Of a stretch of DNA of 64,000 bases, positions 13,804 to 56,324 are shown piece after piece. The DNA is taken from assembly GCF_006345805.1 (NCBI RefSeq), contig NC_042998.1, positions 7,998,001-8,062,000 on the forward strand, in the 5' to 3' direction. Each line of letters opens with the position of its first letter. The stretch's first letter is position 1. Made by a program: the position numbers and the translations under genes. The notes beneath the pieces are model-generated. The model ran no database searches and was not told where the DNA came from. It worked only from the letters and a program-made list of their open reading frames with translations. This stretch comes from Octopus sinensis. Lineage: Eukaryota.

Positions 13804-13998
13804 TGTGACCGTGTGTGTATCGTTGGCGATTTTTTCCTCCGTCTTCCCTTCCTTGGATCTTTCCTTTTCCTATATTTCTGACGAAGAGCTCCGCTCGAAA
13901 CGTTAAATTCTCCTTCCTCCTTTCCTTTCCTGAGCGTCCAATAACACTATACTTGTTCCACGTCCTCGCGTTGTTGTGTTTTCAAGTTTGGATTAACT
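13804..13998 (+). mobile_element. ~200-bp hammerhead mini-element, family HA copy 1
   Basis: starts TGTGACC, ends TTTGGATTAACT then (TA)n; three homologues in the window. Confidence 0.8.
13875..13907 (+). ncRNA. minimal type I hammerhead ribozyme motif
   Basis: TTT-CTGACGA-A-GAGC-TCC-GCTC-GAAA-CG-TT-AAA: intact CUGANGA and GAAA boxes, 4-bp stem II, palindromic ACGT stem III. Confidence 0.7.
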
Positions 13999-15133
13999 TT
14001 ATATATATATATGCGAACTTTAGGTTAACTAGATGTGTTTGCATTATATTTCAACTCCTAAAGGCAAATTCACTGCAGCTGCCGCCCAAAAAAGCATTTT
14101 CTCTTATGGTAAAAGTTATAAAAATACTGTACCTGCCCAATGCTTCCCTCTATCGGATTCCCACACGCAAATTTTCTGGCTCTTTAGCATTCCTCAGTGG
14201 GAAATACCGATGACAGGTAACTGGATAGATTTAGAGCCGTAGCTTTCACTAAAGATTAGTCAGCAACATTGAGTGAGTTGCACTATTAGACCGCTCGTTC
14301 GGGATACAACGAAAAGTCAACTGTGTCAGCGCTTAGCAGTGACAAGCGAACTTTAGGTTGGTTAAAATATGTTTGTGGCATATTGTGTGTACGCGTGTTT
14401 GTGTGTGTGTGTACGCGTGTTTGTGTGTGTGTACGCGTGTTTGTGTGTGTGTGTGAGTGTGTGTTACGTAAACATAGTTCAGTATAATGAGATTTTAGTT
14501 TTCATGACGCATTTAAGACAAAGAAACTAATTAACAGTTTCAAGCTCGCACCAGTATACAATTAGTTCACTAATGCGTGATATAAGCCTTGTTTCAATTT
14601 AACGAATGTCTTACCATTGTGCATCTCTTATTATAAAAGGCAGATTTTATCTGCCTCCCTTTGGGAGTTATACAAATCTACAATATAGGATTTCTTCAAT
14701 TACAATTTACCTAGCATTTTTAAGAGTACAATGCATCGCGTCATGCCAGGTCCAGTTTTTAAAATTTCAACTCCAATTAAGCAAAATTTACAGAAAACTC
14801 ACATTCTGGTGTGTGTGTCAAATGCTTTTCTTAGTCTGGTTTACACCACACGCAAACGCACACACACAGTGGGCAACGAATAAAATGAAAGTAATTCACT
14901 TACTGTAGTGAGTGATTCTTTCACTCTGCCTCCCACTTCCCTTTCCACACATAGACACGCAAATATATAAATAAAATTGTAAGCTAACGTGCGTGTGTGA
15001 GTGTGTGTGTGTGTGTGTACGCGCGTGTGTGTGTGTGTGTGAGGGTGCGTGTGTGTGTGTGTGTGCGTGTGCGTGAGTGTGTGACAGGAAAGTTTTTTAC
15101 GACGAATATAAGACCTATATCCAAGTAGCAGAA

Positions 15134-15399
15134 AGATAAGACAGTAAGGTGTGATTTGAGGGAGATTTGGCTGCTATTTCTACCATGTCTAGCTGCCATG
15201 TAGGGGTCTCCCTCATAGGCTCATACATACATATATACATAGATAAGACAGTAAGGTGTGATTTGGGGGAAATTGGCTGCTATTTCTACCAGGTCTAGCT
15301 ACCATGTAGAGGTCCCCCTCATTGGCTCATATATATATACATACATAAGACAGTAAGGTGTGATTTGAGGGAGATTTGGCTGCTGTTTCTACCAGGTCT
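15134..15399 (+). repeat. three tandem ~105-bp units separated by (TACA)-type spacers
   Basis: ATAAGACAGTAAGGTGTGATTTG(A/G)GGGA...TTGGCTGCT(A/G)TTTCTACC repeated near 15135, 15243 and 15345. Confidence 0.8.
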
Positions 15400-15754
15400 G
15401 TTAGGCCTTCTCATGTAAACTCAAGCTTTCTCATGCCTTGAACATAAGACCAAAGCAGAGAATGTATTCTTTTATTCTTCTGCTTTTTCCAACCATTGGT
15501 CTGTGGACATGCTGGGGCAATGCCTTGAAGAATTGTAGTTTAATGAATCAACTCGTTTTATTTTTGTAAGCATTGTACTTATTCTGTTTCCTTTGTCAAA
15601 CCACTAGGTGACAGGGATGTAAACAAACCAACATTCGTTGTCAAGCAGTGGTGGAGGACAATCACAAGCACAGACACGCACACACACACACATACATGCA
15701 TACACATATACACACATACATACATACATATATATATATATGTATATATATATA

Positions 15755-16077
15755 TTGCAGCGTGGAAGGTGTTGTAAGCCATTTAAGAAACACACAAAAA
15801 CCGTTACATTCACTTCAACATTTAAATTTAATTTGCCAAAATATTTTCGTCGCTTTGAGACCGCCACCTGTTCACTGACAAAAATATCGTGCTAACAGGT
15901 CGCGGTCTCAAAGCGACGAAAATATTTTGACAAATTAAATTTAAATGTTGAAGTGAATCTAACGGTTTTTGTGTGTTTCTTAAATGGCTTATAAACACCT
16001 TCAACGCTGCAACTGTTTTCGTTCCAGCACACGATCTCAGATCAAGTCACTTGCTATGCAAGTACATCTCTGTAACT
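15755..16077. mobile_element. Penelope-type inverted terminus pair (118-bp arms) plus one-sided tail, in (TA)n
   Basis: arms 15755-15872 and 15894-16012 are near-perfect reverse complements; unpaired tail 16013-16077; hammerhead-like fold inside. Confidence 0.7.
15832..15882 (-). ncRNA. hammerhead-like motif with G3-C8 core variant
   Basis: TTTGTCA-GTGAACA-G-GT(G/C)GC-GGTCTCAAA-GCGAC-GAAA-ATAT-TT-TG(G/A)CAAA; alternative bases are from the second arm. Confidence 0.55.
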
Positions 16078-16176
16078 ATATATATATTTATATATATATA
16101 TATATATGTATATTGGTAAAAACAGTAAGATAACAAAAGAAAGAAAGAGACCTCAATATTATGTAAATAGAGGAAA

Positions 16177-16571
16177 TCTTTATAGATAAAAGTGAGGTTG
16201 TGTGTCTGTCTCCTACGATTTAGATTCCTAACTACTCCCACATTTTGCGGTGCAGTTTAACTAAAACCGGGTATCTTATAGTCGTGATTCATATCGACAC
16301 CGTCTGGGTATTAGCGCGCGTCTACGATGAGTCTACGATTTAAAAAAAAATTTACCATCAATTTTTCCCATTTTTAATCCATTTTTGACATATATAAGGG
16401 AAGTAACTCTCTAAAATTTATTATTAAATCTCAGAACGTAAAAAGCTACAGTAACACCCCTCCCCCTTTGTGGTTAGCCATATTGAGATGACTATTATAC
16501 TTTACATCTCTAAAAATGCTTATATAATTATTTCCCTTACAAACCCGAGCAACGCCGGGCGATACTGCTAG
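16177..16571 (+). mobile_element. non-autonomous Helitron
   Basis: 5' TC after A, 3' hairpin CCCGAGCAACGCCGGG then CTAG before T, no TSD; three copies in the window. Confidence 0.85.
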
Positions 16572-16605
16572 TAACATAATAAAAGAAAAACATGCTGATT
16601 TAGGA

Positions 16606-16859
16606 TACTCTTTTACTCTCTTACTTATTCAGTCAATTGACTGCGGCCATGCTGGAGCACCGCCTTTAGTCGAGCAAATCGACCCCTGGACTTATTCTTT
16701 GTAAGCTTAGTGCTTATTCTATCGGTGTCTTTTGACGGACCGCTAAGTTACGGGGGCGTAAACACACCAGCAACGGTTGTCAAGCGATGTTGGGTGGGTG
16801 GTGGGCAAACACAGACACACAAACACGCACACACACGCACACACACACACACACACACT

Positions 16860-16893
<34 letters not shown>

Positions 16894-17060
16894 CATATAT
16901 ACGAGGGCTTCTTTCAGTTTCTGTCTACCAAATCCACTCACAAGGCATTGGTCGGCCCGAGGCTATAGTAGAAGACACTAGCCAAAGTTATCATGCTGTG
17001 GGACTGAACCCAGAACTATGTGGTTGGTAAGCAAGCTACTTACCACACAGTCACTCCTGC
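16606..17060 (-). mobile_element. SINE family A
   Basis: reverse complement of the 5913 copy. Confidence 0.9.
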
Positions 17061-17568
17061 GATAAGTAATAAACTAAAAAGCTCAGCCATCTGTTTAAAA
17101 TCTACATATACAGAGAATTATCAGATACATTCGCGATTCCTCTATGCAGAGTAGGTTTAAAAAACGTCTTCTTAAATATAACGAATTATGAATGGCTATA
17201 AAATTTAGACGCGTTTTGTTCAGAGCCTGCACTATATATTTGATGGCGAAGCATGCAGGAGATATGGCGTGCTTTTACTTCTTTGCGGGAAAGCTTGTCA
17301 TGTAGCCATCTTGGCTGAAATGTGGCGTGTTGGAAGATTTTTCGAATTATTTAAACTCTGTTGGCAAGACACCAGGAATATCTGCTGCAAATTGGTTAGT
17401 GCGAAAGTTACATGTTGTGTGACGCTAGGTTTCTGGAAGAAACAATCATTTGGGATTGTAAAGAGAGATATTAAATTCGACACCCACGTTTATGTGGGCG
17501 TCGGAACAGTGGTATAGAACCGAACAGGTAAAATCACGCACGCACACACACACATATATGTGTAAATA

Positions 17569-17633
<65 letters not shown>

Positions 17634-17844
17634 GTATGTACATATATATATATATATATATATGATGGCTGGTGCTCGTACCATTCCAGCTGCTTGTCTC
17701 AGTGAAAAAGTAATTAACCATAAAATAGTTAATGTGTGAAATTGAAACAACATTCAGAATTACTACTAAAACTGCTACTTATAACAACAACAACAACAAC
17801 AACAACAACAATAATAATAATAATAATAATAATAATAATTTAAA

Positions 17845-18050
17845 ATTTTGGCACAAGGCCAGTAATTTCGCGGGAGGGGGTAAGTCGATTATATCGACCC
17901 CAGTTCTTGACTGGTACTTATTTTATCGACCCAGAAAAGATGAAAGGCAAAGTCGGCTTCTGTGGATTTTGAACTCAGAACTCAAAGACGGATAAAATTC
18001 TGCTAAGCATTTGGCCCCGCATGCTAGACATTCTACTAACTCGCCGCCTT
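17845..18050 (-). mobile_element. SINE family M with older tail type B
   Basis: head AAGGCGGCGAG, Meta-like core, tail CCCGCGAAATTACTGGCCTTGTGCC followed by (ATT)n/(GTT)n. Confidence 0.75.
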
Positions 18051-18244
18051 AATACAGCTACTACTAATAATAGCATTCTTAATTTCTAGCAACTTCCACA
18101 AGGGCAACGAATGAGGGAATATCACCAGAGCCGCTTATATAAAGTCTGGATATTTTTTTATTGAAATAGAATGATAAAATAAATGAGAAAGTGAGTGACC
18201 AATTTGCCCGATTCTATGTCTCTGCAGACTGACCAATGTAATTA

Positions 18245-19290
18245 GAACCATTTCGCAATGCTTTGTGTCATTAATCAACTCCTCCTTGCTTCTCCAGATC
18301 CTTTAGCTAGCCTATTGTTTAATCTTTCTTTGACAAGGTGTTCGTTCCAAGGTATATTGAAATCGAAACGGATTATGCTCGTGTAGGCGCTAGATAGCAA
18401 CTTCTTTTAGTCTTTTAGTCGGTATTCAAATAGAAAAGCCAACAGTAACATACCTTCAGTCCTTGTGCGGAGGAGGATGCTTTTCAGATTCTATGAGAGT
18501 TTATATTTCCATAATATGTTGAGCCTTAAGGCAACGAGATGACAGAATCTTCAGATCGTTGGGAAAATGCTCATTGGTATTTTTTTACGTTCTGAGTTCA
18601 AATCCTGTCGAGTTCAAATATGTATTTTTCATTCTTTTAGGGTCGGTATGATAAAGTACCAATCAAGTCAATGGTATCGACTTACACTTCTCCTCAAAAC
18701 TCATCAAGATGAGAAATTATATTATACTGAGACATCTAAGTGCTGCTCAAACACTACTGACACGCAGTTTTAAATCTGCCGTTGAGATACTGTGTTACTT
18801 CCGAGTACGTGAAAGAATTTATAGGATTTTCGAGCTTCCAGACAATAAAGTAATTTTGTGCTTTCTACGATGTGATGAACTCTTTTTGTTCCATCCACCA
18901 CGAGAAAAATAGTAGTCGCGGCACTTTTGAAGCGTCTTTGAAAATGTGTAAGGAATCCTGCAATCATTTCCGACATGACAGCTAAGTTATATTCATCATC
19001 ATAACTTGTTGCTATTATTGTAAATGTTGCGTATCTGGAATATTCTGAAGATGCGATGGTAGGGTCATGTTCCTTGTATTTTACTGAAGTACACAAGACA
19101 TAATCAAGATTGAGTATGAATAAGAAAGGAGCAAATGTGTCTCTTTATAAAACACTGGTAAATGTTCTGTCTCCGACAGGTGTACGCACCTCAGTTCGAA
19201 TGTTTTGCAGAGCATCATTATTGCATCAAATATTTCTTGAGGGATTCCATAGGCTTGTGGGATTTCTTGTATCACACCCTTGTGTATTAT
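18245..19290 (-). mobile_element. old decayed RTE-clade LINE interrupted by a SINE
   Basis: AYGIPQEIFDAIMML, then SVL*RDTFAPFLFILNLDYVL (degenerate GVLQGDTLAP) and SYDDE (degenerate YADD). Confidence 0.6.
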
Positions 19291-19962
19291 CTATCTAACT
19301 GTATAAGTGATACGCACAAACATATATGCATATATGAGTATGCATGCATATGTGTATGCATGCATATGTGTATGCATTTATACACACATACATGCACACA
19401 TATACATATATATATAGAGAGAGAGAGATACACATGCACGCACACTTACACACAAATATATGTACATACATATATGTACGTAAGTACCGAGAATTTGAGA
19501 GAGAGAAGCAGACAGAGAAGGGAGAACCAGAACATAAACACTGTATTCCCTTGAGGCTTCAGGAGAACGCAGCAAAGATGCAAGCACAAGGAAACGTACA
19601 AAGTGTTTAAAACATGTCAGTGTTTTTACAATCTTGAAATTAGCAGATCAGCTCATCGTTGTAAAACAACATCGTTTCGTAAATGCAAAAGCTTGTAAAC
19701 AAATACCAAAGAGAAATTTAATTAGAAAGGTATACTTGTTCTTTGTCGACAAAGTGTCGGAAGAAATTGAAACATCGGTATTTCGGTGTTTGTACAGTCA
19801 TTAACTCGTAAGATTGTTTTATAAATTGCATTATGTAATTAACGCAGGAACCGTATGAATGTAAATGAGAAGAAAATTTCCATCAATTTTCAAATGTAGT
19901 TATTTCGCCATAAACTATACTGAAACTGAAAGGTATACTTGAGAACACAGTGTATAAATATA

Positions 19963-20356
19963 CTAGCAGTATCACCCGGCGTTGCTCGGGTTTGTAAGGG
20001 AAATAATTATATAAGCATTTTTAGAGATGTAAAGTATAATAGCCATCTCAATATGGCTAACCACAAGGGGGGGTGTTACTCTAGCTTTTTACGTTCTGAG
20101 ATTTAATAATAAATTTTTAGAGAGTTACTTCCCTTATATATGCCAAAAATGCATTAAAAATGGGAAAATTCATGGTAAATTTTTTTTTTAATCGTAGACT
20201 CATCGTAGACGCGCGCTAATACCCAGAAGGGCTCGATATGAATCACGACTATAAGATACCCGGTTTTGGTTAAACTGCACCGCAAAATGTGGGAGTAGTT
20301 AGGAATCTAAATTGTAGGAGACAGACAGCACACAACCTCACTTTTATATATAAAGA
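19963..20356 (-). mobile_element. non-autonomous Helitron, copy 2
   Basis: reverse complement of 16177-16571 with TC/CTAG ends. Confidence 0.85.
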
Positions 20357-20954
20357 TATCGGTGACTCTTATCACTTTTGAACAAATACGTCTCTTTATT
20401 TTTCTTATAGCTCTTTCATCAGATATAACACTCATCTTATCGGATCGCTGCGTGGAGGTTGCTTTTGACTTTCGTTTAACCCTTTCTGCTCTTTTTCTGT
20501 TAATTCTTAAGGTGTATTAAATAACATTATAAAAAATATGTGTTGCTTGAACCTAAACGCAAATCATTGCAGATAATTACGTCATGTATAATTATATTCA
20601 GCATGGTTTTCATCAAATAGGTTTAGTTCGATACGCATGTATTTGGAAAATATGCATTACACAAGTTTTTAAAGGTTTGTATATGGTTCTCTTTAATAAA
20701 GTTGGTCCTTATCGTCGAGATAACTGATACTTTGTCGGTTACGTCGACGATGGGTTCCAGTTGATCCGATCAACGGGACAGCCTGTTCGGGAAATTAACG
20801 AGCAAGTGGCTGAAAATTCCACAAAAACCTCAACGAGATTCAGCTTGACACAGAATTGGACAAGGTGGCCCTTTCAAATGCAGGAACTACTCATTTTTGC
20901 CAGTTGAGTGGACTGGGCAACGTGAAATAAAAAAATCTTGCTCAAGGATACAAA

Positions 20955-21219
20955 GGGTATTAGCGCGCGTCTACGATGAGTCTACGATTTTTAAAATAAT
21001 TTACCATCAATTTTTCCCATTTTTAATGCATTTTTGGCATATATAAGGGAAGTAACACTCTAAAAATTTATTATTAAATCTCAGAACGTAAAAAGCTACA
21101 GTAACACCCCCCCCTTTGTAGTTAACCATATTGAGATGGCTATTATACTTTACATCTCTAAAAATGCTTATATAGTTATTTCCCTTACAAACCCGAGCAA
21201 CGCCGGGCGATACTGCTAG
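20955..21219 (+). mobile_element. non-autonomous Helitron, 5'-truncated copy 3
   Basis: matches the 3' two thirds of copy 1 including hairpin and CTAG. Confidence 0.85.
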
Positions 21220-21675
21220 TTTACATATACACATACATCCAGAAATCCACATATCCATATATATATATTTATATATCAGTGGCGACTCCGGCACTCGGGC
21301 TGCTCAGGCTTAGCCCGAGTATAAATTTTGTAAAGTGGACGTGTATTATGAAGCTGATTTAATTTCTGCCAAAACTGACTTCTAGTATGTAGTTTCAACC
21401 AATAACTTGGGCTCCATTTATGGAGACTAGTCGCAGTTTAGCGTCTGGCCGTCGTCTTGGATGTGCCCTGTGTCAAAAAATATCATTCGTGGCCGACATT
21501 CTCTGGACTTCGTTCACACACACCTGACTCGGCTTTATTTGTCTTTTCTCTTTTCACCTAGTGCTGTATTGAATACTTGATGTGGTTTTAGAGTCAGATT
21601 TTGACTGCTATTTCAAGCATGGTGGTATCTCTTAGATACCCTTGTTTATAATTATATATAATATATATATATATA

Positions 21676-21884
21676 CTCTTTTACTCTTTTACTTGTTTCA
21701 GTCATTTGACTGCGGCCATGCTGGAGCACCGCCTTTAATCGAGCAACTCGACCCCGGCACTTATTCTTTGTAAGCCCAGTACTTATTCTATCGGTCACTT
21801 TTGCCGAACCGCTAAGTGACGGGGACATAAACACACCAGCATCGGTTGTCAAGCAATGCTAGGGGGACAAACACAGACACACAA

Positions 21885-21923
<39 letters not shown>

Positions 21924-22122
21924 ATATATATATATATAATATATATATATATATATACATATATACGACGGGCTTCTTTCAGTTTCCGTCTACCAAATCC
22001 ACTCACAAGTCTTTGGTCGGCCCGAGGCTATAGTAGAAGACACTTGCCCAAGGTGCCACGCAGTGGGACTGAACCCAGAACAATGTGGTTGGTAAACAAG
22101 CTACTTACCACACAGCCACTCC
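21676..22122 (-). mobile_element. SINE family A
   Basis: reverse complement of the 8588 copy. Confidence 0.9.
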
Positions 22123-22278
22123 ATATACATTATAAAAATATTCAGTTGAATAAGGTACTTAAAGTTGAGGCACCTTGTTAGGTCGGGATATCATGTACTC
22201 ATTGATCAATTTAAAAATTTGTTAGAAACAGCTGTAATAAATTAACACATGTCCATCAATTGCAATTTCTTTATTATA

Positions 22279-23148
22279 TGTGGTGTGGTCAACAAGTATC
22301 GGGACTGTTGCCACAGTTACGAAGCTAAAGTACGTGGAGTAAAGCTACTCGGCACATGTTGACCTTGAACTCTGCAGTGCAAACGCACTACGTTTTAACG
22401 TTCTAACGCACTTCCGCTGTTTACAGCAGTCCATGGAAATAACGTGTGTAGCGTGTGTTCGTCGCATTTACCTTGACAGAGAAAGTTGAACCGAGAATCT
22501 GCATCAAATTTGGCCAAAAGCTTGGCGATACCTGCAAAATTTTCATAAAGGCTTCATCGTTCTCGACACAATCAAGGAGATTTTGTGCAACTGAAACCCG
22601 AGTGACATTTTGGTCAGCTGAAAGCAGTTTTGGCACAAACTTAGCAGACACGCATCTCATATCCAATTCTTCAGTGATAACGAACTGAAATGAACCGTAA
22701 CTAAACTGCATATCCTCTGATAACTCAGGGATGGTGATTCGACGATTTCCCCCTCACATCTGCATGCATATCTGCGATATTTTTCCAAGTTCTGCTGGTT
22801 GCAGGTCGCCAGAATATTCGTCATTATCGACATTTTTCGGCTTTTTTTGAAACGTCTGAACCACTCGTACACTTATGTGCGGCTCATACACTCCTCTTCA
22901 TACTATTCTTGCAACTTAGGAATAGTATGGTCCCTGAGCAGGTATCGCCATGACAACTTTCTCTCACTTGGTCAATGCGACGACCACACGTTACTTCGAA
23001 GCAGCGTTGTCAACAGCGGCACTAAGCTAGGACGTTAAAACGTAGTGCACATGCACGGCAGGGGTCAAGGTCAATCTATGCCAATCGGCTCTACTCTGCA
23101 TGCTTTAGTTTCGTTACTATGGCAACAGTCCGGATACTTATTGATCAT
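22279..23148 (-). mobile_element. internally deleted mariner-like transposon with long imperfect TIRs
   Basis: TIRs GTCAACAAGTATCGGGACTGTTGCCA and TGGCAACAGTCCGGATACTTATTGATC, pairing over more than 120 bp; transposase peptides YEWFRRFK and ELDMRCVSAKFVPKLLS. Confidence 0.8.
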
Positions 23149-23153
23149 GTATG

Positions 23154-23190
<37 letters not shown>

Positions 23191-23194
23191 ATAT

Positions 23195-23323: not shown

Positions 23324-23405
<82 letters not shown>

Positions 23406-23894: not shown

Positions 23895-24111
23895 AGTTAA
23901 TCCAAACAAGAAGACACAAAAAAAAAACAAAAAAACACAACAACGCGAGGACGTGGAACAAATAAAGTATTATTGGACGCTCAGCAAAGAAGGGAAGAAG
24001 GAGGGTTTAACGTTTCGAGCGGAGCTCTTCGTCGGAAGCATAGGAGAAGGAAAGATCCCGAGAAGGGAAGACAGAGGAAAAAAAATCGCCAGCGGTACTC
24101 ACGAGGTCACA
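23895..24111 (-). mobile_element. hammerhead mini-element HA copy 2
   Basis: same ends as copy 1; core reads CCGACGA-A-GAGC-TCC-GCTC-GAAACGTTAAA. Confidence 0.8.
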
Positions 24112-24113
24112 TA

Positions 24114-24193
<80 letters not shown>

Positions 24194-25175: not shown

Positions 25176-25212
25176 ACACACACACACACACACACACATA
25201 CATGTATAAAAC

Positions 25213-25410
25213 GTGACTGCGTGTGTACCATTGGCGATGTTTTTTCCGCCGTCTTCTCTTCTTTGGATTTTTCCTATTCCTGTTTCTGACGAAGAGCTCC
25301 GCTCGAAACGTTATACCATCCTTCTTTCCTGAGCGGCCAATAATACTATACTTGTTCCACGTCCTTGCGTTGATGTGTTTTCTCTTTGTGCTTTCATGTT
25401 TGGATCAACT
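25213..25410 (+). mobile_element. hammerhead mini-element HA copy 3
   Basis: GTGACTGC start, CTGACGAAGAGCTCCGCTCGAAACGTT at 25286, ends TTTGGATCAACT then (AT)n. Confidence 0.8.
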
Positions 25411-47200: not shown

Positions 47201-47659
47201 CAATCTGTGTGTGCTGCACATATTGTATTAGAGTCTCCTAACACTACTAGTGAATGCGACGTGGCTAGGAACTTTCCTAGGCCACGAAAATATTCAGTTT
47301 GCGGGCCAATAATGTTTGGTGCATAAATAGCGACCAGCCTGATTGTCTTGCCACAACTGAATGTCAAGTCGAGAACGACCAGCCTGCCTTCTGGGTCAGA
47401 AAAAACCAACTTTTTCTCGGCTACCCGGTTTCTTTTTAGTAGGACCAACACCCCACCCCCACCTCCCGCCCGACTCGGAGAAACGTATTTCTCGTAGCCG
47501 TTCAGGAGGGGGAGCAGATCTCTTGGCCCCTTCACCCGGGTTTCTTGCTGCAACAATTACATCCAAATTTCTCGACCTGATGTCATTCAGAAAGCGTCCT
47601 TGCTTCCAGCTTGGCAACAGGCCATGAACATTTAAACAACCAATGTGAATAGCCATCAC
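44256..47659 (-). pseudogene. ORF2: APE endonuclease-reverse transcriptase with about three frameshifts
   Basis: CLNVHGL, QET, IYAPN, GDSN, YLDRIL, SDH; RPITLLN, KAFDRV, VRQGCPLSP, FADD, CPRC...ETVPHAIVQC; frame breaks near 47550, 46275 and 44370. Confidence 0.9.
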
Positions 47660-47667
47660 TTACCTGT

Positions 47668-49336
47668 CTAATTAGGATTGTCCGGTGGAGGGGGACCCTC
47701 CACCTTTTTTTTATCCAGGGTCGGAGGTGGGCGGTCTTGGGAAATAGATTTGTCAAAATCCCGTCTCACCACCGACACAGAATTATCAGGTGGAGGGGGA
47801 ATCTCCACCTTTTCCTTTTCTCGCGGGATCGGAGCTGGTAATCCATGAAATATCGACTTGTTAAAATCTAATCTCAATGAAGATACAGTCTTTCTGTACT
47901 TATTTTGTAGAATTCTATAAGTCTTATTTGAGACTTCATATATGTCGTAATTGATAAATTCCTCTGAAAGGTTATCAATTTTTTTTACAGTCTTTATGAG
48001 TTGAATGTCTCTCATGAGCTCAGTATCTTTAGTGTATACGGCTATTATGCCTTTTTCTTCTTTTTCTCTTCTGGCAGTCTTTTTTGGTCGTTGTTCTGTA
48101 GTAGTCGCCGCTCTCGGCTGGGTTGCTGGTTGTATTTTTCTTTTGTTTGTTGTTTTTTTCTCATCTGTTTCTTCTTTATCTTCTTCCTCTTTGTCTTTTT
48201 TCTCCTCTTCCTCCTCTTCTTCATTTTCCTTGCAGTTCCTTCGAATGTGGCCTAATTGACCACATAAAAAACATCGAGGTTTTCGGCCCTCAACAAACAC
48301 CACGAGGTTCTCCTCCCCTATCTCAATTGTCTCAGGAATTGTTTGAATTATTTTAGGGTCCGCTTGAATGAGAAGATTAATTGTTTTACCATCCCAGCGT
48401 GGGTTTTCCGTAGCGGTAGCCTGGAGGAGAGTAATTTTTCTACCTCTTTGATTAGGACTGCCGCCAACAACCACATAGGTTCGACCTCTGGCGGGACCCT
48501 TGTAATTTTTATTCGCGACGTCCTCATCCCCATATAATAGGGTATTAACTCCACGTCGTTCGTTTTCAACGTTTCCACTGAGTTCTTGTGTGCTATTTCT
48601 TTATTGGTGAACCTTACTTCCACCGTTCCGAATTTTTTTCCTCTTCTCAGAAATACTACGTCGCCCAATATTGGCTTTAAGCACTTTTCTATTTTCTCTT
48701 CTGACATTCTTTCAATTTTTCTATTTTGTAGACAATATGTTTTGAAAATTATTGTTTTTTGCTTTTCTTCCTGTAATAACTTTTTGTTTTATTATTACCC
48801 ACTAGGGGCTACATAGATGGGACAATACAATCGGGAATGAATAATGAATTATGAAGTTTGTACAATGTGGTGTAATGTCCACTTCCTGTAATAACTTTTG
48901 CGGAGGTTCAATTTTCACACTGTTGTCATTTATTTCCATCATTTTGCTGTATTTCATAATTTCGCTTTTATTCGTCGACAGTATCTGGGTTCCACCCCCA
49001 GCAGCCAACGCAAAACTTTTTTTTCCATTTTTTGGTTCTATCTGGATGCTAGGCACATCAATTATTCTCTTCGACACAATGCCTTTGTTCTCTGGCAAAG
49101 TCGGAAATCTTCTGGTGAAAGTTCTGACGAGCTCTCAGACACATCTCCAAAAATATCAAATATATTATCCTCTCTGCTATTCCTTCTTGTAGCGGGGGAA
49201 CCCCTATTTCCTTGTCTGTAGTTGGCTCCTCGCCGGACATGTATTTCCTCCTCTCAACAGGAGAAACAAGTATTTCTGCTCCAACGGTAGGCTCCATGCT
49301 AGACGACATTCTTCCCCCCAGAGGGGGAATGAACAA
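47668..49336 (-). pseudogene. ORF1 with CCHC zinc knuckle, disrupted by frameshifts and a 97-bp insertion
   Basis: four adjacent ORF fragments; RRGKKFGTVEVRF, RIKITRVPPEV, CFLCGQLGHIRRNC. Confidence 0.85.
48785..48881 (-). mobile_element. 97-bp 3' end of a sister Tx1-type element inside ORF1
   Basis: tail TGTCCCATCTATGTAGCCCCTAGTGGGTAATAATAAAAC; TSD CTTCCTGTAATAACTTTT at 48767-48784 and 48882-48899. Confidence 0.85.
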
Positions 49337-49877
49337 CGCGTGCTACCACAAGCACTAAGTGTTTTCAATTGAAAACTCCAACAGTTAAGTTATTCAACAG
49401 TTTAACAAGAAACAACAGTTGTTAACAATATTAACACCACGAAACAGCAATTCTTACTTCACGAACACATGTGCGGCAGACGAAATACCGTTAAGCATTT
49501 CACCCGGCGTGCCAACGTTTCTGCCAGCTCGCCGCCTTCGACAAATACCTTATAATAATTCTTAATTTAGGCAGAAGGTCAACGAATGGTTTGATAAGCT
49601 TAGTCAATCAAGTCGACTATTTCGATGGAACTCTACCGTATCGACTCCGGAGAAACGAAAAGCATTAATGACCTGGTCTGGATTTAAACTCATTGAGGAG
49701 GTCTAACATGAACAAAACATGTCTAACGCTTTCACCGCTAGGCTTATAAGAGGGGTAGCAATTCTTACTGTATTATAAAAGTTCTTCCCAACTTCAGGTT
49801 TAATATTGTAAGTTATCTCCTTTAGTTACCCTTTTTAGATTTGGACACGCACATGTGCACATAGTAATAGGAGCAAA

Positions 49878-49912
49878 CATATATATATATGCATATATGA
49901 ATTATATATACA

Positions 49913-49956
<44 letters not shown>

Positions 49957-50062
49957 GACATATATATATACATATAGACATATATACACACACATATATA
50001 TATATATATTCATATATTCATATATATATATATATATATATTCATATATATATATATATATA

Positions 50063-50096
<34 letters not shown>

Positions 50097-50312
50097 TATA
50101 TATATATATATATATATATGAATATATATTATATATATATATATATATATATTCATATATATATATATATATATTCATATATATATATATATATTCATAT
50201 ATATATATATATATTCATATATATATATATTCATATACATACATATATATATATACATATAGACATATATACACACACATATATATATATACATACATAT
50301 ACTTACACACAC

Positions 50313-50367
<55 letters not shown>

Positions 50368-50372
50368 CATAT
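49878..50372. repeat. compound (TA)n microsatellite
   Basis: seen directly. Confidence 0.95.
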
Positions 50373-50845
50373 GATTGAACTATAGCACGCTGAATAGTGG
50401 GTCTGAGTTCATATGGCGCCGCGTATATGGATTGAAGAGGCATCTTTATGCAGTTAATGTTACTAATCGTCTTTTAATTGATGCAGCAGATTAAAAATCG
50501 CCATGCAATTACCTTTAAAATATCTGACATTACTCTCGTATAATTTCAGCTTCTGGCTCTACTACAGAATATATATACGATTCTGTCGCCTGTTATCTAC
50601 TTTCTTCTAAAGCAAATGATAGCAAAGATATCTGAGACCGCAATAGTCTGTGCCATGACTTCCAACTGTAAATGGTTTTAATATATAAAGGAGACCTAGA
50701 CTTTACGTTACATATTTATTTGTTCCTGTTAAACGTTACCCATACACAGATGACATGAAAATGTGTATATATAAGAGTTTATATTCGTATACTTCCAAAA
50801 TGTATGTTTAAATTGTTTATGTAAATATATGCTTATGTGTGTGTT

Positions 50846-50888
<43 letters not shown>

Positions 50889-50911
50889 ATATATGACTAT
50901 GTACATGTAGG

Positions 50912-50949
<38 letters not shown>

Positions 50950-50979
50950 CACACACATATATATATTTACATATATATG

Positions 50980-52750
50980 TAAATAAATCCTCTTTAGAAC
51001 GAACAAGGAAAGATCTACACAAATTCTTCTTTAGCCTCAACATATCTATTACTTTTGAAAATTCCCACAAAACCACTAATTTTTTTAGATGTAAGTTTGA
51101 ACTTAGAAACCTCTCAATACACCCCATATCACAAACCTACCAAGTACCTTAAGTACTTGAACATTAATTCCAATCACCACAAATCCACCTTTGATGCTAT
51201 AGTTAAAGGTATCTCAATTCGTATATCTGACCTTTCATCCACTGAGGATATATTTGATAACCACACACCATATTACAACCAAGCGCTCGCTGCCAGCGGC
51301 TTCTCCCAATAAATAAGATACATCCCTAATACTAGGCTCAAGCAACATATATCTCAAATCATGTCAACGGCATGCCAACCATCCGAATCACAACAGACCA
51401 CCCATACACTATACTAGAACCCCAGGAGAACTCAGATTAAGACAACTTAGACCCCCACACGCACACATATAACACTAGGTCAAAAGCTAAAACAGCTAAA
51501 AATAACGGCCATATTATCCCCCTCTAACTTCGAAAAATATAGAAAACACTACCTTTAAGCAACCAAAGAAGTGATGGACGCTCTATTCTATGCACTTCGC
51601 TTCTCATTAAACGTTAAGAACTTAGCTAAATCCTTATTAAATATGCTGCACTTCAACTTGCCTCGTCGACATAAACATTATTCTTTCTTAAAGCTATCCT
51701 ACTCCTCCCTGCCCAACTTTGAGTCTATCATATCAGCTTCTAATAAACGAAAACTTATTATCAAACTTACAGTGTAATAACTCTGAAGACACGAACGCCC
51801 AGCATATATATAGCTCCAATATCGAACCCTATATTTTAGAACACACTACCATTTCCCACTAACACTAACCAGAATACTACTACTACAACTTCCACCACTA
51901 TTACAGGTAGGATGTATAACAACAACGATAGAAATAGCAATGAAAATAGTACTAATAATAACATAGACCATTCTACCCCTATCTCTAACCGCTCCTCTGA
52001 CAGTATTACTCCCTTCATTCCTAAGAATAATCCCCAAAATCCACTACCCTGTAACTGCCGTCTTGGGATCATCTGCCCTCTACAAACTCATTGCAGAAGG
52101 TCTAATGTAATATATAAGTGCACCGTCCTCAACACGTTACACAATTCTACAACTATATATATATAGGATCAACTATGATTTTTAAACAACGATACGCTGT
52201 GCATTTCAATTCTTTTAGATACAAGAAACAGTAAATCCACACAACACTCACCAGTTACATACATCATCTCAAAAATAGAAATATTCCCTACATCTAGCTG
52301 TGGTCATTAATAGATTCAGGGCTTCCATACAAAGGTTAACGCTCAGCCTGTAAGCTATATCTAAAAAGAGGCATTCCACACATTAAAACAAAATCCCCTT
52401 AATGCCATTCTAAAATATCACCCGACCTTACACACCTCACACATATTCATTACTTACATTCTTATCTCTTCCTACCTACACCTACTCCTCTCCCATCCCC
52501 CTCATAATATCTTGACCACTAACTCTCTCTTTTTCTCTTTTACTCTTTTACTTGTTTCAGTCATTTGACTGCGGCCATGCTGGAGCACCGCCTTTAGTCG
52601 GGCAAATCGACCCCGGGACTTATTGTTTGTAAGCCCAGTACTTATTCTATTGGTCTCTTTTTGCCGAACCGCTAAGTGACGGGGACGTAAACACACCAGC
52701 ATCGGTCGTCAAGCAATGCTAGGGGGACAAACACAGACACACAAACACAT

Positions 52751-52799
<49 letters not shown>

Positions 52800-53540
52800 T
52801 ACGACAGGCTTCTTTCAGTTTCCGTCTACCAAATCCAGTCACAAGGCATTGGTCGGCCCGTGGCTATAGCAGAAGACGCTTGCCCAAGATTCCACGCAGT
52901 GGGACTGAACCCGGAACCATGTGGTTGGTTAACAAGCTACTTACCACACAGCCACTCCTACACATTTTTTACTTCCTTACACTTTTTTTCATTTTCTCTT
53001 CGTTTTCATTTTCTCCTCTTTCTTTCTACTTTTCTCACCTTTTCCTTTGACCTCGCTTTTCCATCTAACATGTCTTCTTCCCTCTCTATCCACTTAATAC
53101 TACCACTGCATTCTCAAATTTTCATTCACACCACAAGACGCCTTTAAATGAACAATACATAGTATTCACATTTCCACACTTTTGTGATGACAAAATAAAA
53201 ACTCTGATTGGAATTTACATATCACAGACCGGAAGCATTTCTACCACTTCTACACATCACTTTCCTTGGATAATGGAGCCGCAACTGTAACATCTTTATA
53301 TATTTTTATTTTCATTTCTACATTCACTCTCCTATTTCCCTATGTACTCCTTATTTGCTTGTTTTTCGAAAATAACTCCTTATATTCAACTTTAATATTT
53401 ACCTCTCTTCAACCATCTCATGGCGTCTCTAGTGAAGGGATAGTCCTAATATCCCAGAAACAGCTGTAAGACTAACTTTCTCTTTATAAATGTCCTGAAA
53501 ATTCCACACAGCCTTGGTTTTGTTGTCTCATTTTATTTAA
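50980..53540 (+). mobile_element. decayed 5'-truncated Penelope-like element (RT thumb + C-terminal GIY-YIG, Hydra-clade-like), with a SINE A at 52535-52960
   Basis: FLDVSLNL...PYHKP...SNHH...RISDLSS...YNQALAASGF; KLSYSSLPN; CNCRLGIICPLQTHCRRSNVIYKC...IYI-G. Confidence 0.85.
53425..53472 (+). ncRNA. degenerate type I hammerhead in the Penelope 3' terminus
   Basis: GTCT-CTAGTGA-A-GGGATA-loop-TATCCC-A-GAAA-CAGCTG-TA-AGAC; first box mutated from CTGATGA. Confidence 0.6.
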
Positions 53541-53564
53541 GATACACACACATAATATACAGAA

Positions 53565-55076
53565 AGTTAGTAGTAACTTTAAAAATATAATTGCATACAA
53601 CAAACAAAAACAAATAAATGAAGCCAGCTGATCCTGCAGCGTTAAACATTTGTGCCCGCTAAATGGTGCTTGTATGGCCGAGGCCATCGTTTATGAAGCT
53701 ACTGTAGACCCTACAACAACTAAGGACATAATTTCGTCAAAGAAATATGTGGGTCTCACAGGGAAATTTTAACGCCAGATTCAACGATCACACCTTAAGT
53801 TTCAGGCACTCGGATAAAAGGAAAACAACCAAATTATCCAGTTATATATAGTCCTTAAAAGAAAAACTATTAGGTCCACTGGAAGATCTTGGCCAAGTGC
53901 AAGCCTTACACTAAGGCAGTGGAAAGTGCGGTCTTTGCGATATGGAAAGATGGCTTACATGGAAAAGTTCTTTAGACCCCGCTACATGTCTAAATTCAAG
54001 AACTGAACTTTTTGGTTCATGTCCATATATGGCAAAACATTTGCTACGTTTTTGGACCCCCAAGATCACAGATAGAACCTGCTTTTTATATCATATAATG
54101 TCTACGTATAAGCCTTTTACATGTCTTAACATTCCTTATACTTTTATATATATTTATATATATTTGATTACTTTATATATTTTTCTGTATATTATGTTAC
54201 TTATACGCGTGTACTATATACCTAAAGTAATACGTGCGTGCATATATACATTGTGTACGAATGACTGTATATATATACGAGAGCAAGACTCTACCTGTTG
54301 TACTTGTCTCCTTCCTTCATACACACATACATGTATGTATATACATTATATGTCTGCACGTGTAGATGTGTTTGTCAGACAGAGAGGTGTATTTTGTGTA
54401 TATACATATATAAAACTTTTTTGGTATAATCAAGTTTTGCGGCGATGGTGAATGTTTTTACAGTTCTGGGGTTTTTTTTTGTGTATATATTTATTTGTAT
54501 TTTACGTCTATCCGCGTATGCATGTGCATGTGCGTATAGACTACGTTTTCTATATCTGCGTATGTATGTGTATGTACGAATAGAGATGTGTATATGAGCA
54601 TTTTGATGCGTGCATTTTTACGTATGCGTTTTTATTTGTATTTATGTTTTCCGCGTATGTATATGGATATGCGTATAAACCACGTTTTGTGTATCCGCAT
54701 AAGTATGTGTGCGTGTGCCTTTAGACATGTATATATGAGCGTAGTGATGCATGCATGAGTATATTTCCGCGTGTATGTGCGTGCATACGTAGACATATAT
54801 ATGTATATATATGTGTTTGTATGTATTTGTATGCGCGTGAGTATGAATATAGATGTATACATGTGTCAGTATGCGTACATGTATGTGTGTATGTATATAT
54901 ATGTGTGTATATGCGGATTCTATGAATGAAGCATTACTTTCAACATGCCTTTTGGAGTTATTTCCTTTTATTTAACGCTTTTTATCATAGCGTTTTGTCT
55001 TAATAACTGATGAGATATCGGAGCAGACTTCCTCTCCGGTATCCGAAAACTCTGAATGTTATTATGACAACCAACT
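53565..55076 (+). mobile_element. second decayed Penelope-like element (GIY-YIG domain + 3' terminus)
   Basis: NFKNIIAYN...S*SCSVKHLCPLNGACMAEAIVYEATV...KKYVGLT...KLSSYI...WKILAKC...KCGLCDME...LNSRTELFGSCP. Confidence 0.85.
54995..55070 (+). ncRNA. degenerate type I hammerhead
   Basis: stem I TTGTC-T-TAATAA/TTATTA-T-GACAA, CTGATGA at 55007, 10-bp stem II GATATCGGAG/CTCCGGTATC, GAAA at 55045; cleavage triplet looks damaged. Confidence 0.6.
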
Positions 55077-55112
55077 AGTTGTATACACCACACACACACA
55101 TATATATATATG

Positions 55113-55200
<88 letters not shown>

Positions 55201-55632
55201 TATTATATACACATATATATGTATGTATATATGAATATATATATATATATCACATAATTTGTCTATACTTCCATGACCCAAGTATTTATTTATTTAGATA
55301 ACAAACCAAAAATGGCGATAAATACGATTTTGTACTTCTTCAAGGATATAATTATAACTGGGTGGTTTACAAACTAACTTCGACGGAACATGACTCTAGA
55401 TAAACCGCTGCTACGCAAACTCCTACACAATTGTCTTCTAATATAGCTTTGAAGCAAATCACTGTTCTCTAAAATGCAACGAGAATTATTATTAGACAGT
55501 TGCTATACACAAGTTCATCGGATGAGTCTGTGCGTGCGTGAGTAATACTGTGTGAACTGAATTCCTCAATAAAAGATTGCTGGCATGATAAACCGTAGCT
55601 TCTTAAATTGAGGTTTTCAATTAAGAAGATCG

Positions 55633-55830
55633 GGATCTTTTCTTTTTGATGGACGGAATTTTCTAGTTAACTAAACAATTTGAAACTTCGTATACTGGTA
55701 GAATGTGTCAAAAGAAAACATTATTGTAAACAAAATTGAAAAGAAAATTGTAATTTGTAAGTTTAACGTAGTTTAATTCTTCGAATTTTAACCAATGAAA
55801 TCCCAGCATTTGAGCTCAACTCATTTTCTG
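55633..55830 (+). mobile_element. fragment related to the 33664 MITE
   Basis: GGATCTTTTC start and AAACTTCGTATACTGGTAGA...ACCAAT shared with 33664-33845. Confidence 0.5.
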
Positions 55831-56119
55831 CGTCTAAGTAAACAGCACACACATACACACACGCACACGTAGTACTATGTTCACGCTGGTGTTCCCGATA
55901 TGCGATCTTTGTAAGCAGAATTTAAATGCGAGCTCCTGTTTGTAACATACCTCTCAGAATATAACATTGTCCGGCCATTGTATTTTCGGAGGCATGTAGA
56001 TAATGGTACCTCGCATTTAAATCCTACGTATACTAAGTGTAATTTATTTATCACTGAACTGAGTGATACTTTTTATTGATCCTACCAGTAACGGATCAGT
56101 ATACTATATATATATATAA

Positions 56120-56324
56120 ATTTAATCCAAACAAGAAAGCACAAAAAAACACAACAACGCCAGGACGTAGAACAAATATAGTATTATTGGATGCTCAGAA
56201 AAGAAGGAAAGAAGGATGGCTCAACGTTTCGAGCGGAGCTCTTCGTCGGAAACATATGAGAAGGAAAGATCCAGAGAAGGGAAGACAGAGGAAAAAAATC
56301 GCCAACGGTACACATGCGGTCACA
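56120..56324 (-). mobile_element. hammerhead mini-element HA copy 4
   Basis: TGTGACCGCATGTGTACCGTTGGCGA start, CCGACGAAGAGCTCCGCTCGAAACGTT, 3' end at (TA)n. Confidence 0.8.

What the first reader, a model, noticed from the sequence alone, without database searches (positions are those of the whole stretch)
13804..56324. Fixed-end ~200-bp hammerhead mini-retroelement in (TA)n tracts (four copies)
Seen: copies at 13804, 23895, 25213 and 56120 all begin at the same GTGAC(C/T) motif about 73 nt upstream of a minimal hammerhead, C(T/C)GACGA-A-GAGC-TCC-GCTC-GAAACGTT. All end at TTTGGAT(T/C)AA next to TA-rich repeats, with no ORF and no tRNA head. The ribozyme block is nearly invariant while its flanks vary. 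Known: Penelope pseudo-LTRs and metazoan retrozymes carry such minimal hammerheads, which cleave as dimers through a palindromic stem III. Inference: shared 5' ends argue against random truncation and for a discrete non-autonomous unit, either a solo pLTR or a Penelope-mobilised SINE equivalent. Four copies in 64 kb suggest a very high copy number.
Basis: partly seen in the sequence, partly recalled or inferred. Interest (0 to 1): 0.75.

Follow-up and report, generated by a model that had tools for sequence, protein, structure and literature searches.

The report
Short tail copies of a Penelope retrotransposon
The four ~200-bp repeats are ORF-less copies of the 3' end of a Penelope-like retrotransposon that sit in TA-rich microsatellites, were likely copied by that element's enzymes, and carry its hammerhead-like RNA motif, which is predicted to cut weakly or not at all in most copies; this is a known kind of element.

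Summary
Four ~200-bp copies share a 27-nt block, a GTGAC start and a TTTGGAT(T/C)AA end beside (TA)n.

- **Origin.** The unit is the 3'-terminal (pseudo-LTR) segment of an abundant Penelope-like element (PLE). Two genomic copies keep a 1008-codon open frame (RT, then C-terminal GIY-YIG) flanked ~6.2 kb apart by this block. Older long copies end in the window's own subtype.
- **5' ends.** In an unbiased sample, 62 of 100 copies start in a 16-nt window, 19 are shorter and 6 run into the long element. Copies of the coding subtype are broadly truncated (1 of 19 in that window). The short subtype therefore behaves as a near-fixed-length non-autonomous unit.
[quoted passage not shown] Most copies read CCGA (U4C), including two in the window and all four pseudo-LTRs of the intact copies. 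No Rfam family matches and cleavage is untested.
- **Copy number.** There are 18,422 cores with at most 2 mismatches, about one per 148 kb. Tandems are rare.

Verdict: a new member of a known kind.

The parts
13785..13999 (+). Copy c1 (subtype A1, CTGA box). Homology to long family members starts near 13785, GTGAC is at 13805-13809, and GGATTAAC is at 13990-13997. It is flanked by (TA)n at 13719-13785 and from 14000.
13878..13904 (+). Hammerhead-like block of c1: CUGACGA, an extra A, helix II GAGC/GCUC with loop UCC, then GAAA-CGU-U. The predicted cleavage site is after 13904. Helix I is 13874-13877 paired with 13905-13908.
   Evidence: traits from PMC4209133
23896..24110 (-). Copy c2 (A-type, GTGAG subfamily, CCGA box, i.e. 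U4C). It has a T-rich expansion near its 3' end and (TA)n on both sides.
24009..24035 (-). Block of c2, with CCGACGA.
25206..25409 (+). Copy c3 (CTGA box). GTGAC is at 25213 and it ends GGATCAAC at 25402-25409. The 5' flank is (CA)n and the 3' flank is TA/TATG repeats.
25286..25312 (+). Block of c3, with CTGACGA.
56121..56322 (-). Copy c4 (CCGA box). Its 3' end GGATTAAA lies beside (TA)n. Its 5' flank is GA-rich sequence followed by (GATA)n.
56223..56249 (-). Block of c4, with CCGACGA.

Best explanation
These are short, ORF-less copies of the 3'-terminal (pseudo-LTR) segment of a Penelope-like retrotransposon family, and they were likely copied into TA-rich microsatellites by that family's reverse transcriptase and GIY-YIG endonuclease.

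**Shown.**
- The same unit, with the block and the TTTGGATTAA end, forms the 3' terminus of long elements that carry a PLE RT-EN frame. In full-length copies it also stands upstream of the frame as a pseudo-LTR.
- Some short copies are flanked by target-site duplications of about 15 to at least 20 nt.
- The window's subtype (A) has a strong 5'-end mode at (A)TTCAAAA-TGTGAC. The coding subtype (C) is broadly 5'-truncated.

**Inferred.**
- Priming of reverse transcription occurs on nicked (TA)n or AT-rich targets.
- A-type units propagate as a near-fixed-length non-autonomous lineage. The template is perhaps a ~200-nt RNA that starts at the conserved TTTCAnnATGTG site in the pseudo-LTR. They may now be borrowing the enzymes of the intact C-type PLE.
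- The hammerhead-like block is the family's inherited minimal hammerhead. It could act only as a dimer, because helix III is just the palindrome ACGU. In most copies it carries U4C, so it is predicted to be weak or inactive. Its invariance across subtypes points to a role in the element's RNA, which need not be cleavage.
For: **Partner.**
- L112 and L113 hold 1008-codon open frames with ADKG, YFLPKIHKP..GRPIVSA, GVAMGTRMGPNFANLF, YIDD, a C-x4-C-x2-C linker and GLIYCIKCNLCGMLYVGQTGRR.
- BLASTP gives E = 4e-77 to another PLE family of this genome; that family passes the Pfam GIY-YIG cut-off.
- The block lies on both sides of the frame (L112 1370 and 7648; L113 1216 and 7311). The flanking repeats are 380/381 and 255/257 identical.
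- The upstream repeat ends GGATTAAAATTATA|CCACTGCG. The downstream one ends GGATTAAAATTATA(TA)n.
- Six same-strand pairs 6.1-6.3 kb apart occur among the first 100 GTC-type cores. None occurs among 100 CTGA or 100 CCGA-GTT cores.

**Long copies of other subtypes.**
- L088 (B-type end) holds aa 393-1008 of the frame at 76-87% identity.
- L089 (A-type end) holds aa ~594-1004 at 36-59% identity. In both, the coding part lies about 3 kb upstream of the unit on the same strand.

**5' ends.**
- 62 of 100 unbiased copies end 73-88 nt 5' of the core. 19 are shorter, 13 end at 89-135 nt and 6 beyond 135 nt.
- C-type control: 1 of 19 ends in that window, with a range of 18 to more than 1400 nt. Fisher p = 9.7e-7.

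**Insertion marks.**
- Target-site duplications flank L029 (at least 20 nt) and L131 (about 15 nt) exactly.
- (TA)>=4 lies within 24 nt of the 3' end in 77 of 100 copies, and at the 5' flank in 50 of 100.

**Block.**
- It is invariant across six subtypes whose mean column identity is 61%.
- Helix I pair 2.4-1.4 is G-C in 84, G-U in 43, C-G in 4 and A-U in 4 of 144 instances.
- Literature traits come from PMC4209133 (whole text, parts 1-2). (TA)n targeting and 3' hammerheads of EN+ PLEs come from PMC8557442 (passages).
Against: **Against a discrete short lineage.**
- The 5' ends form a cluster (ATTCAAAA, AAATG, TGTGAC, CCGGTC...) rather than one nucleotide.
- Long copies exist within the A-type, including L006, which is 94% identical to c1. 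Typical copies could therefore be hot-spot truncations of long masters.
- The site is AT-rich in A-type (TTCAAAATG) but not in C-type (TTCACCATG). Microhomology with (TA)n targets could explain the mode without any short master.

**Against a working hammerhead.**
- CCGA (U4C) outnumbers CUGA: 6124 against 2027 exact cores. It is the form in the intact copies.
- A related subtype has CUGUUGA.
- No Rfam hammerhead family matches, even at E <= 10.
- The unit's fold is no more stable than shuffles (z = 0.20).
- The block can also form a plain extended hairpin (GACG/CGUU plus GAGC/GCUC) in the minimum-free-energy fold.

**Other limits.**
- Pfam matches of the 1008-aa frame fall below the curated cut-offs: RVT_1 18.3 against 29.6 bits, GIY-YIG 15.6 against 22.6 bits.
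- The sample requires an intact 27-nt core, so copies truncated 3' of it are unseen.
Confidence: 0.6

Rival explanations
1. The short copies are dead-on-arrival by-products. Each is a 5'-truncated cDNA made from a long PLE template. The 5' mode is a hot spot where the nascent cDNA, on reaching the AT-rich TTCAAAATG stretch, pairs with the (TA)n target and reverse transcription ends. No self-propagating short lineage exists.
For: - Long A-type copies exist (L006, L061, L073/L089, L078/L090).
- 5' ends spread over several nearby sites, and a second small cluster lies at the T-run about 56 nt from the core (L153, L154, L166, L175).
- Many junctions are ambiguous with the TA flank, for example ...TATATAT|GTGACC.
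- PLEs are known to be 5'-truncated on insertion (PMC8969392, passage).
- The homologous site in C-type is less AT-rich.
Against: - Copies that start exactly at ATTCAAAA have unrelated, non-TA 5' flanks (L139, L084, L059, L029, L028, L023). L029's start is fixed by a target-site duplication.
- 60 of 92 copies in a 16-nt window is an extreme hot spot.
- The A-type-related coding family looks old. Its best non-self match is 77% amino-acid identity and its longest open frame is 693 aa among 150 scored. The short units differ pairwise by only about 10-12%.
Confidence: 0.25
2. The units cycle as retrozymes. Tandem or read-through transcripts are cut by paired hammerheads. The monomer is ligated into a small circular RNA. 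The PLE enzyme then copies the circle, which sets both ends at the (UA)n junction.
For: - Head-to-tail copies are joined by (TA)n-TG-ATTCAAAA in L018, L023 and L026 and near L121.
- One contig of run X1 joins the 3' part back to the 5' part (table 5c).
- Published models for animal retrozymes and for PLEs propose this cycle (PMC7229834 passages; PMC4209133 Discussion; bioRxiv 10.64898/2026.07.22.740005 abstract and Results).
Against: - Tandems are rare: 1 of 100 in the unbiased sample.
- The hammerhead is the minimal type, with U4C in most copies, and has no loop-loop contacts.
- Element ends do not coincide with the predicted cleavage site.
- No RNA evidence is available. The runs found are contigs of uncertain kind.
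Confidence: 0.1
3. It is an ordinary SINE moved by a LINE, and the hammerhead resemblance is accidental.
For: - It is short, dispersed, ORF-less and ends beside a simple repeat.
- No Rfam hammerhead hit was found.
Against: - It has no tRNA, 5S or 7SL head.
- The same 3' end and block terminate RT plus GIY-YIG elements in three subtypes.
- The block has the three PLE-specific minimal-hammerhead traits.
Confidence: 0.03

Closest known systems
Minimal hammerheads in pseudo-LTRs of metazoan Penelope-like elements, and their thousands of solitary genomic copies (Cervera & de la Pena 2014, PMC4209133)
   Same: - The motif is a type I layout inside the PLE terminal repeat.
- It has an unpaired nucleotide between A9 and G10.1, a G10.1-C11.1 pair, a palindromic 15.2-16.2, and a helix I of 4 bp.
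- Most motifs are solitary and only a few sit in full PLEs, as that paper reports for several animal genomes.
   Different: - Helix II is 4 bp with a 3-nt loop, against the 6-8 bp described there.
- The U4C core is the majority form and is the form in the intact coding copies.
- The solitary copies here have a sharp 5'-end mode rather than being simply 'truncated PLEs'.
Animal non-LTR retrozymes (Cervera & de la Pena 2020, PMC7229834; Li et al. 2026 preprint 10.64898/2026.07.22.740005)
   Same: - They are short (170-400 nt) and AT-rich, carry a hammerhead, and have no ORF.
- They are proposed or shown to derive from PLE pseudo-LTRs.
- Their monomers are dispersed.
   Different: - Retrozymes are defined by tandem arrays with canonical type I hammerheads, and they are expressed as circular RNAs.
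- Here tandems are rare, the hammerhead is of the minimal type, and expression is unknown.
EN+ Penelope-like elements with the CX2-5CxxC linker (Neptune/Nematis type), and (TA)n target bias (Craig et al. 2021, PMC8557442)
   Same: - The partner has RT followed by a C-terminal GIY-YIG domain, a C-x4-C-x2-C linker and the ADKG motif.
- It has pseudo-LTRs of variable length, a hammerhead-like motif near the 3' end, and insertions in (TA)n.
   Different: - The clade was not placed by phylogeny here.
- The partner carries about 3 kb of CA/TACA-rich low-complexity 3' UTR.
- Its hammerhead core is non-canonical (U4C).
Classical SINEs
   Same: - They are short, non-autonomous, high in copy number and have a fairly fixed 5' end.
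- Their 3' end is shared with an autonomous retroelement.
   Different: - This unit has no pol III-type head.
- Its partner is a PLE, not a LINE.

Membership tests
Hammerhead ribozyme (type I, PLE minimal form) | Core box C3-U4-G5-A6-N7-G8-A9 | tested here: inconclusive
   - The box is met in c1, c3 and 2027 exact genomic cores (CUGACGA).
- It is not met in c2, c4, in 4545 + 1579 exact cores, or in all four pseudo-LTRs of L112/L113, which read CCGACGA, i.e. U4C.
- PMC3088659 (Discussion passage) says a viroid U4C variant loses much activity in vitro yet stays infectious.
Hammerhead ribozyme (type I, PLE minimal form) | Core box G12-A13-A14, A15.1-U16.1, H17 | tested here: met
   GAAA-C-G-U followed by U or C is present in all sampled copies by construction of the pattern, and in subtypes A, B and C. 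The D subtype has GUA.
Hammerhead ribozyme (type I, PLE minimal form) | [quoted passage not shown] | tested here: met
   The sequence is A + GAGC/GCUC with loop UCC. The related D subtype keeps the stem with loop GUAA or GUAG. The traits are listed in PMC4209133.
Hammerhead ribozyme (type I, PLE minimal form) | Helix I supported by covariation | tested here: met
   Helix I is 4 bp. Pairs 2.1-2.4 form standard pairs in 93-97% of 144 instances, and positions 2.5-2.7 are unpaired. Pair 2.4-1.4 occurs as G-C 84, G-U 43, C-G 4 and A-U 4. Most sequences are close relatives, so the support is modest.
Hammerhead ribozyme (type I, PLE minimal form) | Helix III, or a palindromic 15.2-16.2 that allows a dimer | tested here: met
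   A15.1-C-G-U16.1 is the palindrome ACGU. No monomeric helix III is possible (sequence).
Hammerhead ribozyme (type I, PLE minimal form) | Match to a curated covariance model | tested here: not met
   The window has 0 Rfam matches at gathering score. No hammerhead family matches at E <= 10 on 13780-14020.
Hammerhead ribozyme (type I, PLE minimal form) | Self-cleavage | not testable with these tools
   This needs in vitro transcription of monomer and dimer constructs.
Penelope-like element, EN+ (the partner) | [quoted passage not shown] | tested here: met
   - L112 1637-4660 is a 1008-aa frame with RT motifs and a GIY-YIG core.
- BLASTP gives E = 4e-77 over 739 aa to the 781-aa family; that family passes PF01541.
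- The frame's own Pfam scores are below the cut-offs.
Penelope-like element, EN+ (the partner) | Pseudo-LTRs formed by a partial tandem copy, of variable length | tested here: met
   The upstream repeats are about 381 bp (L112) and about 257 bp (L113). Each ends at the element's 3' terminus and is joined directly to the 5' end CCACTGCG.
Penelope-like element, EN+ (the partner) | Clade placement (Neptune, Nematis, Penelope/Poseidon or Hydra) | not tested
   Only the C-x4-C-x2-C linker was seen (CSRSRCNTC). No tree was built.
Animal non-LTR retrozyme | Tandem repeats, each with a hammerhead | tested here: not met
   A second core lies within 600 nt on the same strand in 1 of 100 unbiased copies. 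Head-to-tail neighbours occur in 3 of 30 top-scoring copies.
Animal non-LTR retrozyme | Expressed as small linear and circular RNA | not testable with these tools
   Only contigs of runs of uncertain kind were on offer.
Classical SINE | Head derived from tRNA, 5S or 7SL RNA | tested here: not met
   ARAGORN finds 0 tRNAs. Rfam finds none.

The most novel reading that the evidence does not exclude
The A-type unit is a true 'SINE of a Penelope element'. It is a ~200-nt RNA transcribed from the conserved TTTCAnnATGTG site of a solo pseudo-LTR, and it is copied in trans by the still-intact C-type PLE into (TA)n. On this reading the genome holds a natural allelic series of its minimal hammerhead. 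About 2,000 copies have the canonical CUGA box, differing from the CCGA form by one C-to-T change at a CpG. More than 6,000 copies have U4C. If both forms amplified equally, hammerhead catalysis is dispensable for PLE-type retrotransposition, and the conserved block serves another role, such as recognition by the reverse transcriptase.
Probability: 0.2. Interest if true: 0.6.

Novelty: new member of a known kind. Interest (0 to 1): 0.35.

Why it matters
- **Annotation.** Units like this are easily filed as unclassified SINEs. Tying them to a PLE pseudo-LTR explains their (TA)n association and their conserved block.
- **An open question.** What hammerheads do for PLEs is unsettled (raised in PMC4209133 and PMC8557442). 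Here one family offers thousands of copies of two core states. It also has intact coding copies that carry the non-canonical state. Whether cleavage matters for spread can therefore be tested by comparison and by simple in vitro assays.
- **Mechanism.** The sharp 5'-end mode in one subtype, against broad truncation in its coding relative, bears on how non-autonomous PLE derivatives arise.

Tried and rejected
- **Rfam.** The whole window was scanned at gathering score and copy 1 at E <= 10. No hammerhead or other plausible family matched.
- **A wrong PLE family.** A Pfam GIY-YIG scan of the genome first led to a different PLE family with a 781-aa frame. Its 3' UTR, aligned in 9 copies, has no similarity to the unit and no hammerhead by a CTGANGA...GAAA scan. 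It was rejected as the partner.
- **L039/L055.** A unit lies about 800 bp upstream of a GIY-YIG match. I checked whether this was an N-terminal-EN (Naiad-like) arrangement. The region is degraded and nothing supports that.
- **Shared flanks.** An all-against-all comparison of the flanks of the 30 best hits found no shared extension. That sample was biased towards full matches of the short query. The unbiased core-pattern sample then revealed the long forms.
- **Close core pairs.** Close pairs of cores in L056 and L057 are separate insertions with other repeats between them.
- **RNA evidence.** No RNA holder was listed. Laying four runs gave only short contigs of uncertain kind. The depth profile was used only as a picture of conservation among copies.
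- **Whole-unit fold.** The fold is not more stable than shuffles (z = 0.20).
- **Earlier findings.** Nothing is on record for this genome.
- **Pfam on degraded pieces.** P0001-P0003 gave no family at E <= 0.01.
- **Age of subfamilies.** Pairwise mismatch is 0.119 for CTGA (20 copies) and 0.105 for CCGA (62 copies). There is no clear age difference, so the direction of the C/T change is unresolved.
- **Organism.** It was not established. An octopus repeat paper (PMC13282606, passages) was read only as context and is not used.


Full report
**What is in the window.**

Four copies of a ~200-bp unit are present, two on each strand. Aligned, they share 83% mean column identity. A 27-nt block is identical in all four except at one position: CTGA in c1 and c3, CCGA in c2 and c4. 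The block occurs 4 times against 0 expected in shuffles.

All four have GTGAC 72-75 nt 5' of the block. All four end TTTGGAT(T/C)AA(C/A) beside TA-rich repeats. The window holds no tRNA, no Rfam match and no PLE coding sequence.

**Copy number.**

The window lies in a 2.72-Gb assembly. Exact 27-mers occur as follows, with reversed-pattern controls of 0 each time:

| Core form | Exact copies |
|---|---|
| CTGA...GTT | 2027 |
| CCGA...GTT | 4545 |
| CCGA...GTC | 1579 |

With up to 2 mismatches there are 18,422 cores. That is about one per 148 kb, so the window is roughly 9-fold enriched. Extrapolating from four per 64 kb would overshoot.

**Finding the coding partner.**

The 30 best matches to copy 1 were all short, with no shared flanks. 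A GIY-YIG scan first led to an unrelated PLE family.

The unbiased sample, the first 30 CCGA cores along contig 1, showed that some copies run on upstream. Following two of them gave long elements on the same strand as the unit. Each has this layout:
- a PLE frame: L088 holds aa 393-1008 of the reference frame at 76-87% identity, and L089 holds aa ~594-1004 at 36-59%;
- about 3 kb of CA/TACA-rich low-complexity sequence;
- about 300 bp that include the unit, then (TA)n.

A search with the endonuclease part found 13,486 first-look candidates, including open frames of 1008 codons. Two of these are L112 and L113. They carry these features:
- RT motifs and the ADKG motif;
- a C-x4-C-x2-C linker;
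- a GIY-YIG core;
- the block on both sides of the frame, about 6.1-6.3 kb apart.

The upstream repeat ends at the element's own 3' terminus and is joined directly to the 5' end of the full copy. That is the pseudo-LTR arrangement described for PLEs (PMC8969392 passage; PMC8557442 passages). The repeats are 380/381 and 255/257 identical, and the two frames are 97% identical at the nucleotide level.

The frame aligns to the other PLE family at E = 4e-77. Its own Pfam scores are below the cut-offs.

Among the first 100 GTC-type cores there are six same-strand pairs 6.1-6.3 kb apart. There are none among 100 CTGA or 100 CCGA-GTT cores.

The unit is therefore the 3'-terminal pseudo-LTR segment of a PLE family. 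The window's subtype (A) occurs almost only as solo units.

**The 5' end.**

I sampled 100 copies in genome order (70 CCGA and 30 CTGA, matching their genomic ratio) and aligned each to long references. The distance from the 5' end of homology to the core was:

| Distance 5' of core | Copies (of 100) |
|---|---|
| shorter than 73 nt | 19 |
| 73-88 nt | 62 |
| 89-135 nt | 13 |
| more than 135 nt | 6 |

The eight B-type copies in this sample were spread from 50 to more than 600 nt.

As a control I sampled 30 GTC-type cores. The 19 true C-type copies ranged from 18 to more than 1400 nt, and only one fell in the 73-88 window. The 11 A-type copies in that sample again clustered at 72-94 nt (9 of 11). 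For A-type against C-type, Fisher p is about 1e-6.

Many copies start exactly at ATTCAAAA with unrelated flanks. In L029 that start is fixed by a target-site duplication of at least 20 nt. In L131 a duplication of about 15 nt fixes a start at GTGAC.

The site TTTCAnnATGTG is conserved across subtypes. The mode is real and subtype-specific, but it is a cluster, not a point. Long A-type copies exist, including L006 in the young CTGA subfamily.

Two readings remain:
- a short self-propagating lineage, perhaps from an RNA that starts at this site;
- hot-spot truncation by microhomology with (TA)n targets.

I favour the first. The A-type-related coding family looks old: its best non-self match is 77% amino-acid identity and its longest frame is 693 aa among 150 scored. 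The short units differ pairwise by only about 10-12%.

**Targets.**

(TA)>=4 lies within 24 nt of the 3' end in 77 of 100 copies and at the 5' flank in 50 of 100. Other copies sit in (TG)n, (TACA)n or (TATG)n. The duplications in L029 and L131 show that at least part of the flanking repeat is duplicated target rather than an element tail.

This matches the (TA)n bias reported for PLEs that carry the Zn-finger-like linker (PMC8557442).

**The hammerhead-like block.**

The block reads: helix I (4 bp), C-U/C-G-A-C-G-A, an extra A, GAGC-UCC-GCUC, G-A-A-A, C-G-U, then U or C.

It shows three of the four traits that Cervera and de la Pena give as arguing against chance:
- G10.1-C11.1;
- a palindromic 15.2-16.2.

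It also has their short helix I. Helix I pairs are kept in 93-97% of 144 instances. Pair 2.4-1.4 appears as G-C, G-U, C-G and A-U.

The block is invariant across six subtypes that are otherwise 61% identical per column. Contig depth across copies peaks there and at a second block, 13942-13965.

Against a working ribozyme:
- U4C is the majority form and is the form in the intact copies.
- A related subtype has CUGUUGA.
- Helix II is only 4 bp.
- No Rfam model matches.
- The predicted monomer fold uses a plain extended hairpin instead.

A U4C viroid hammerhead is reported to keep enough activity in vivo (PMC3088659), so U4C does not prove inactivity. PLE minimal hammerheads cleave poorly in vitro even as dimers.

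Only about 1 in 100 copies has a neighbour that could supply a second motif in cis.

**Comparison with what is known.**

The following have all been published:
- solitary minimal hammerheads 'probably related to truncated PLEs' (2014);
- hammerhead-bearing non-autonomous retrozymes (2020);
- their derivation from PLE pseudo-LTRs in vertebrates (2026 preprint).

This case adds a family in which solo pseudo-LTR units have a near-fixed length, insert in (TA)n, are rarely tandem, and mostly carry U4C. I file it as a new member of a known kind. It is not a retrozyme by the tandem criterion and not a classical SINE.

No search of print for this exact family was possible without knowing the organism. 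My literature searches found no description of PLE-derived fixed-length monomer families with U4C cores.

Noticed in passing
L046 (+) 7521: A canonical-looking PLE hammerhead, CTGATGAGAGGTAAACACCTTGAAACTCGAGTC, has an intact CUGAUGA box and a palindromic loop 3. It lies beside a 775-aa PLE frame on the other strand. This is a different PLE family of the same genome.
   Followed up: no
L043, L045, L047-L054 (for example L043 2221-4563): A second PLE family has many open frames of exactly 781 codons. Its 3' UTR of more than 900 bp contains tandem ~70-90-bp repeats with TGATGACGTC. It is unrelated to the unit.
   Followed up: partly
L088 6650-8950; L112 4700-7400: The partner PLE carries 2-3 kb of CA/TACA-rich degenerate microsatellite between the stop codon and the terminal unit. 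This region is conserved in position across subtypes A, B and C.
   Followed up: partly
window 13926-13935 and the homologous columns of alignment A2: The block UUCCUGAGCG(U/C)C, which begins about 20 nt 3' of the core's end, is invariant across six subtypes. Its GAGCG is complementary to CGCUC in the 3' strand of helix II, which suggests a possible alternative pairing.
   Followed up: no
L113 (reverse strand), oriented 850-1090: A related subtype (D) has CTGTTGA-A-GAGC-GTA(A/G)-GCTC-GAAAC-GTA. It keeps the same stem II but has a tetraloop and an A6-to-U change. Helix I compensates at pair 2.4-1.4 (C-G).
   Followed up: partly
L086 / L087 (G000 C1:25796584 and 25798002): The same copy, with identical flanks, occurs twice 1418 bp apart. 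This is a local segmental duplication, not two insertions.
   Followed up: no
window 56360-56425 and 13719-13785, 24120-24190: The window is very rich in microsatellites: (GATA)n, long (TA)n, (TATG)n and (CA)n. This may explain its local excess of these insertions.
   Followed up: no
window 13982 -> 13814 (table 5c): One contig of run X1 joins the 3' part of the unit back to its 5' part, with 28 other letters between. It could be a head-to-tail genomic copy or an RNA junction. The kind of run is uncertain.
   Followed up: no
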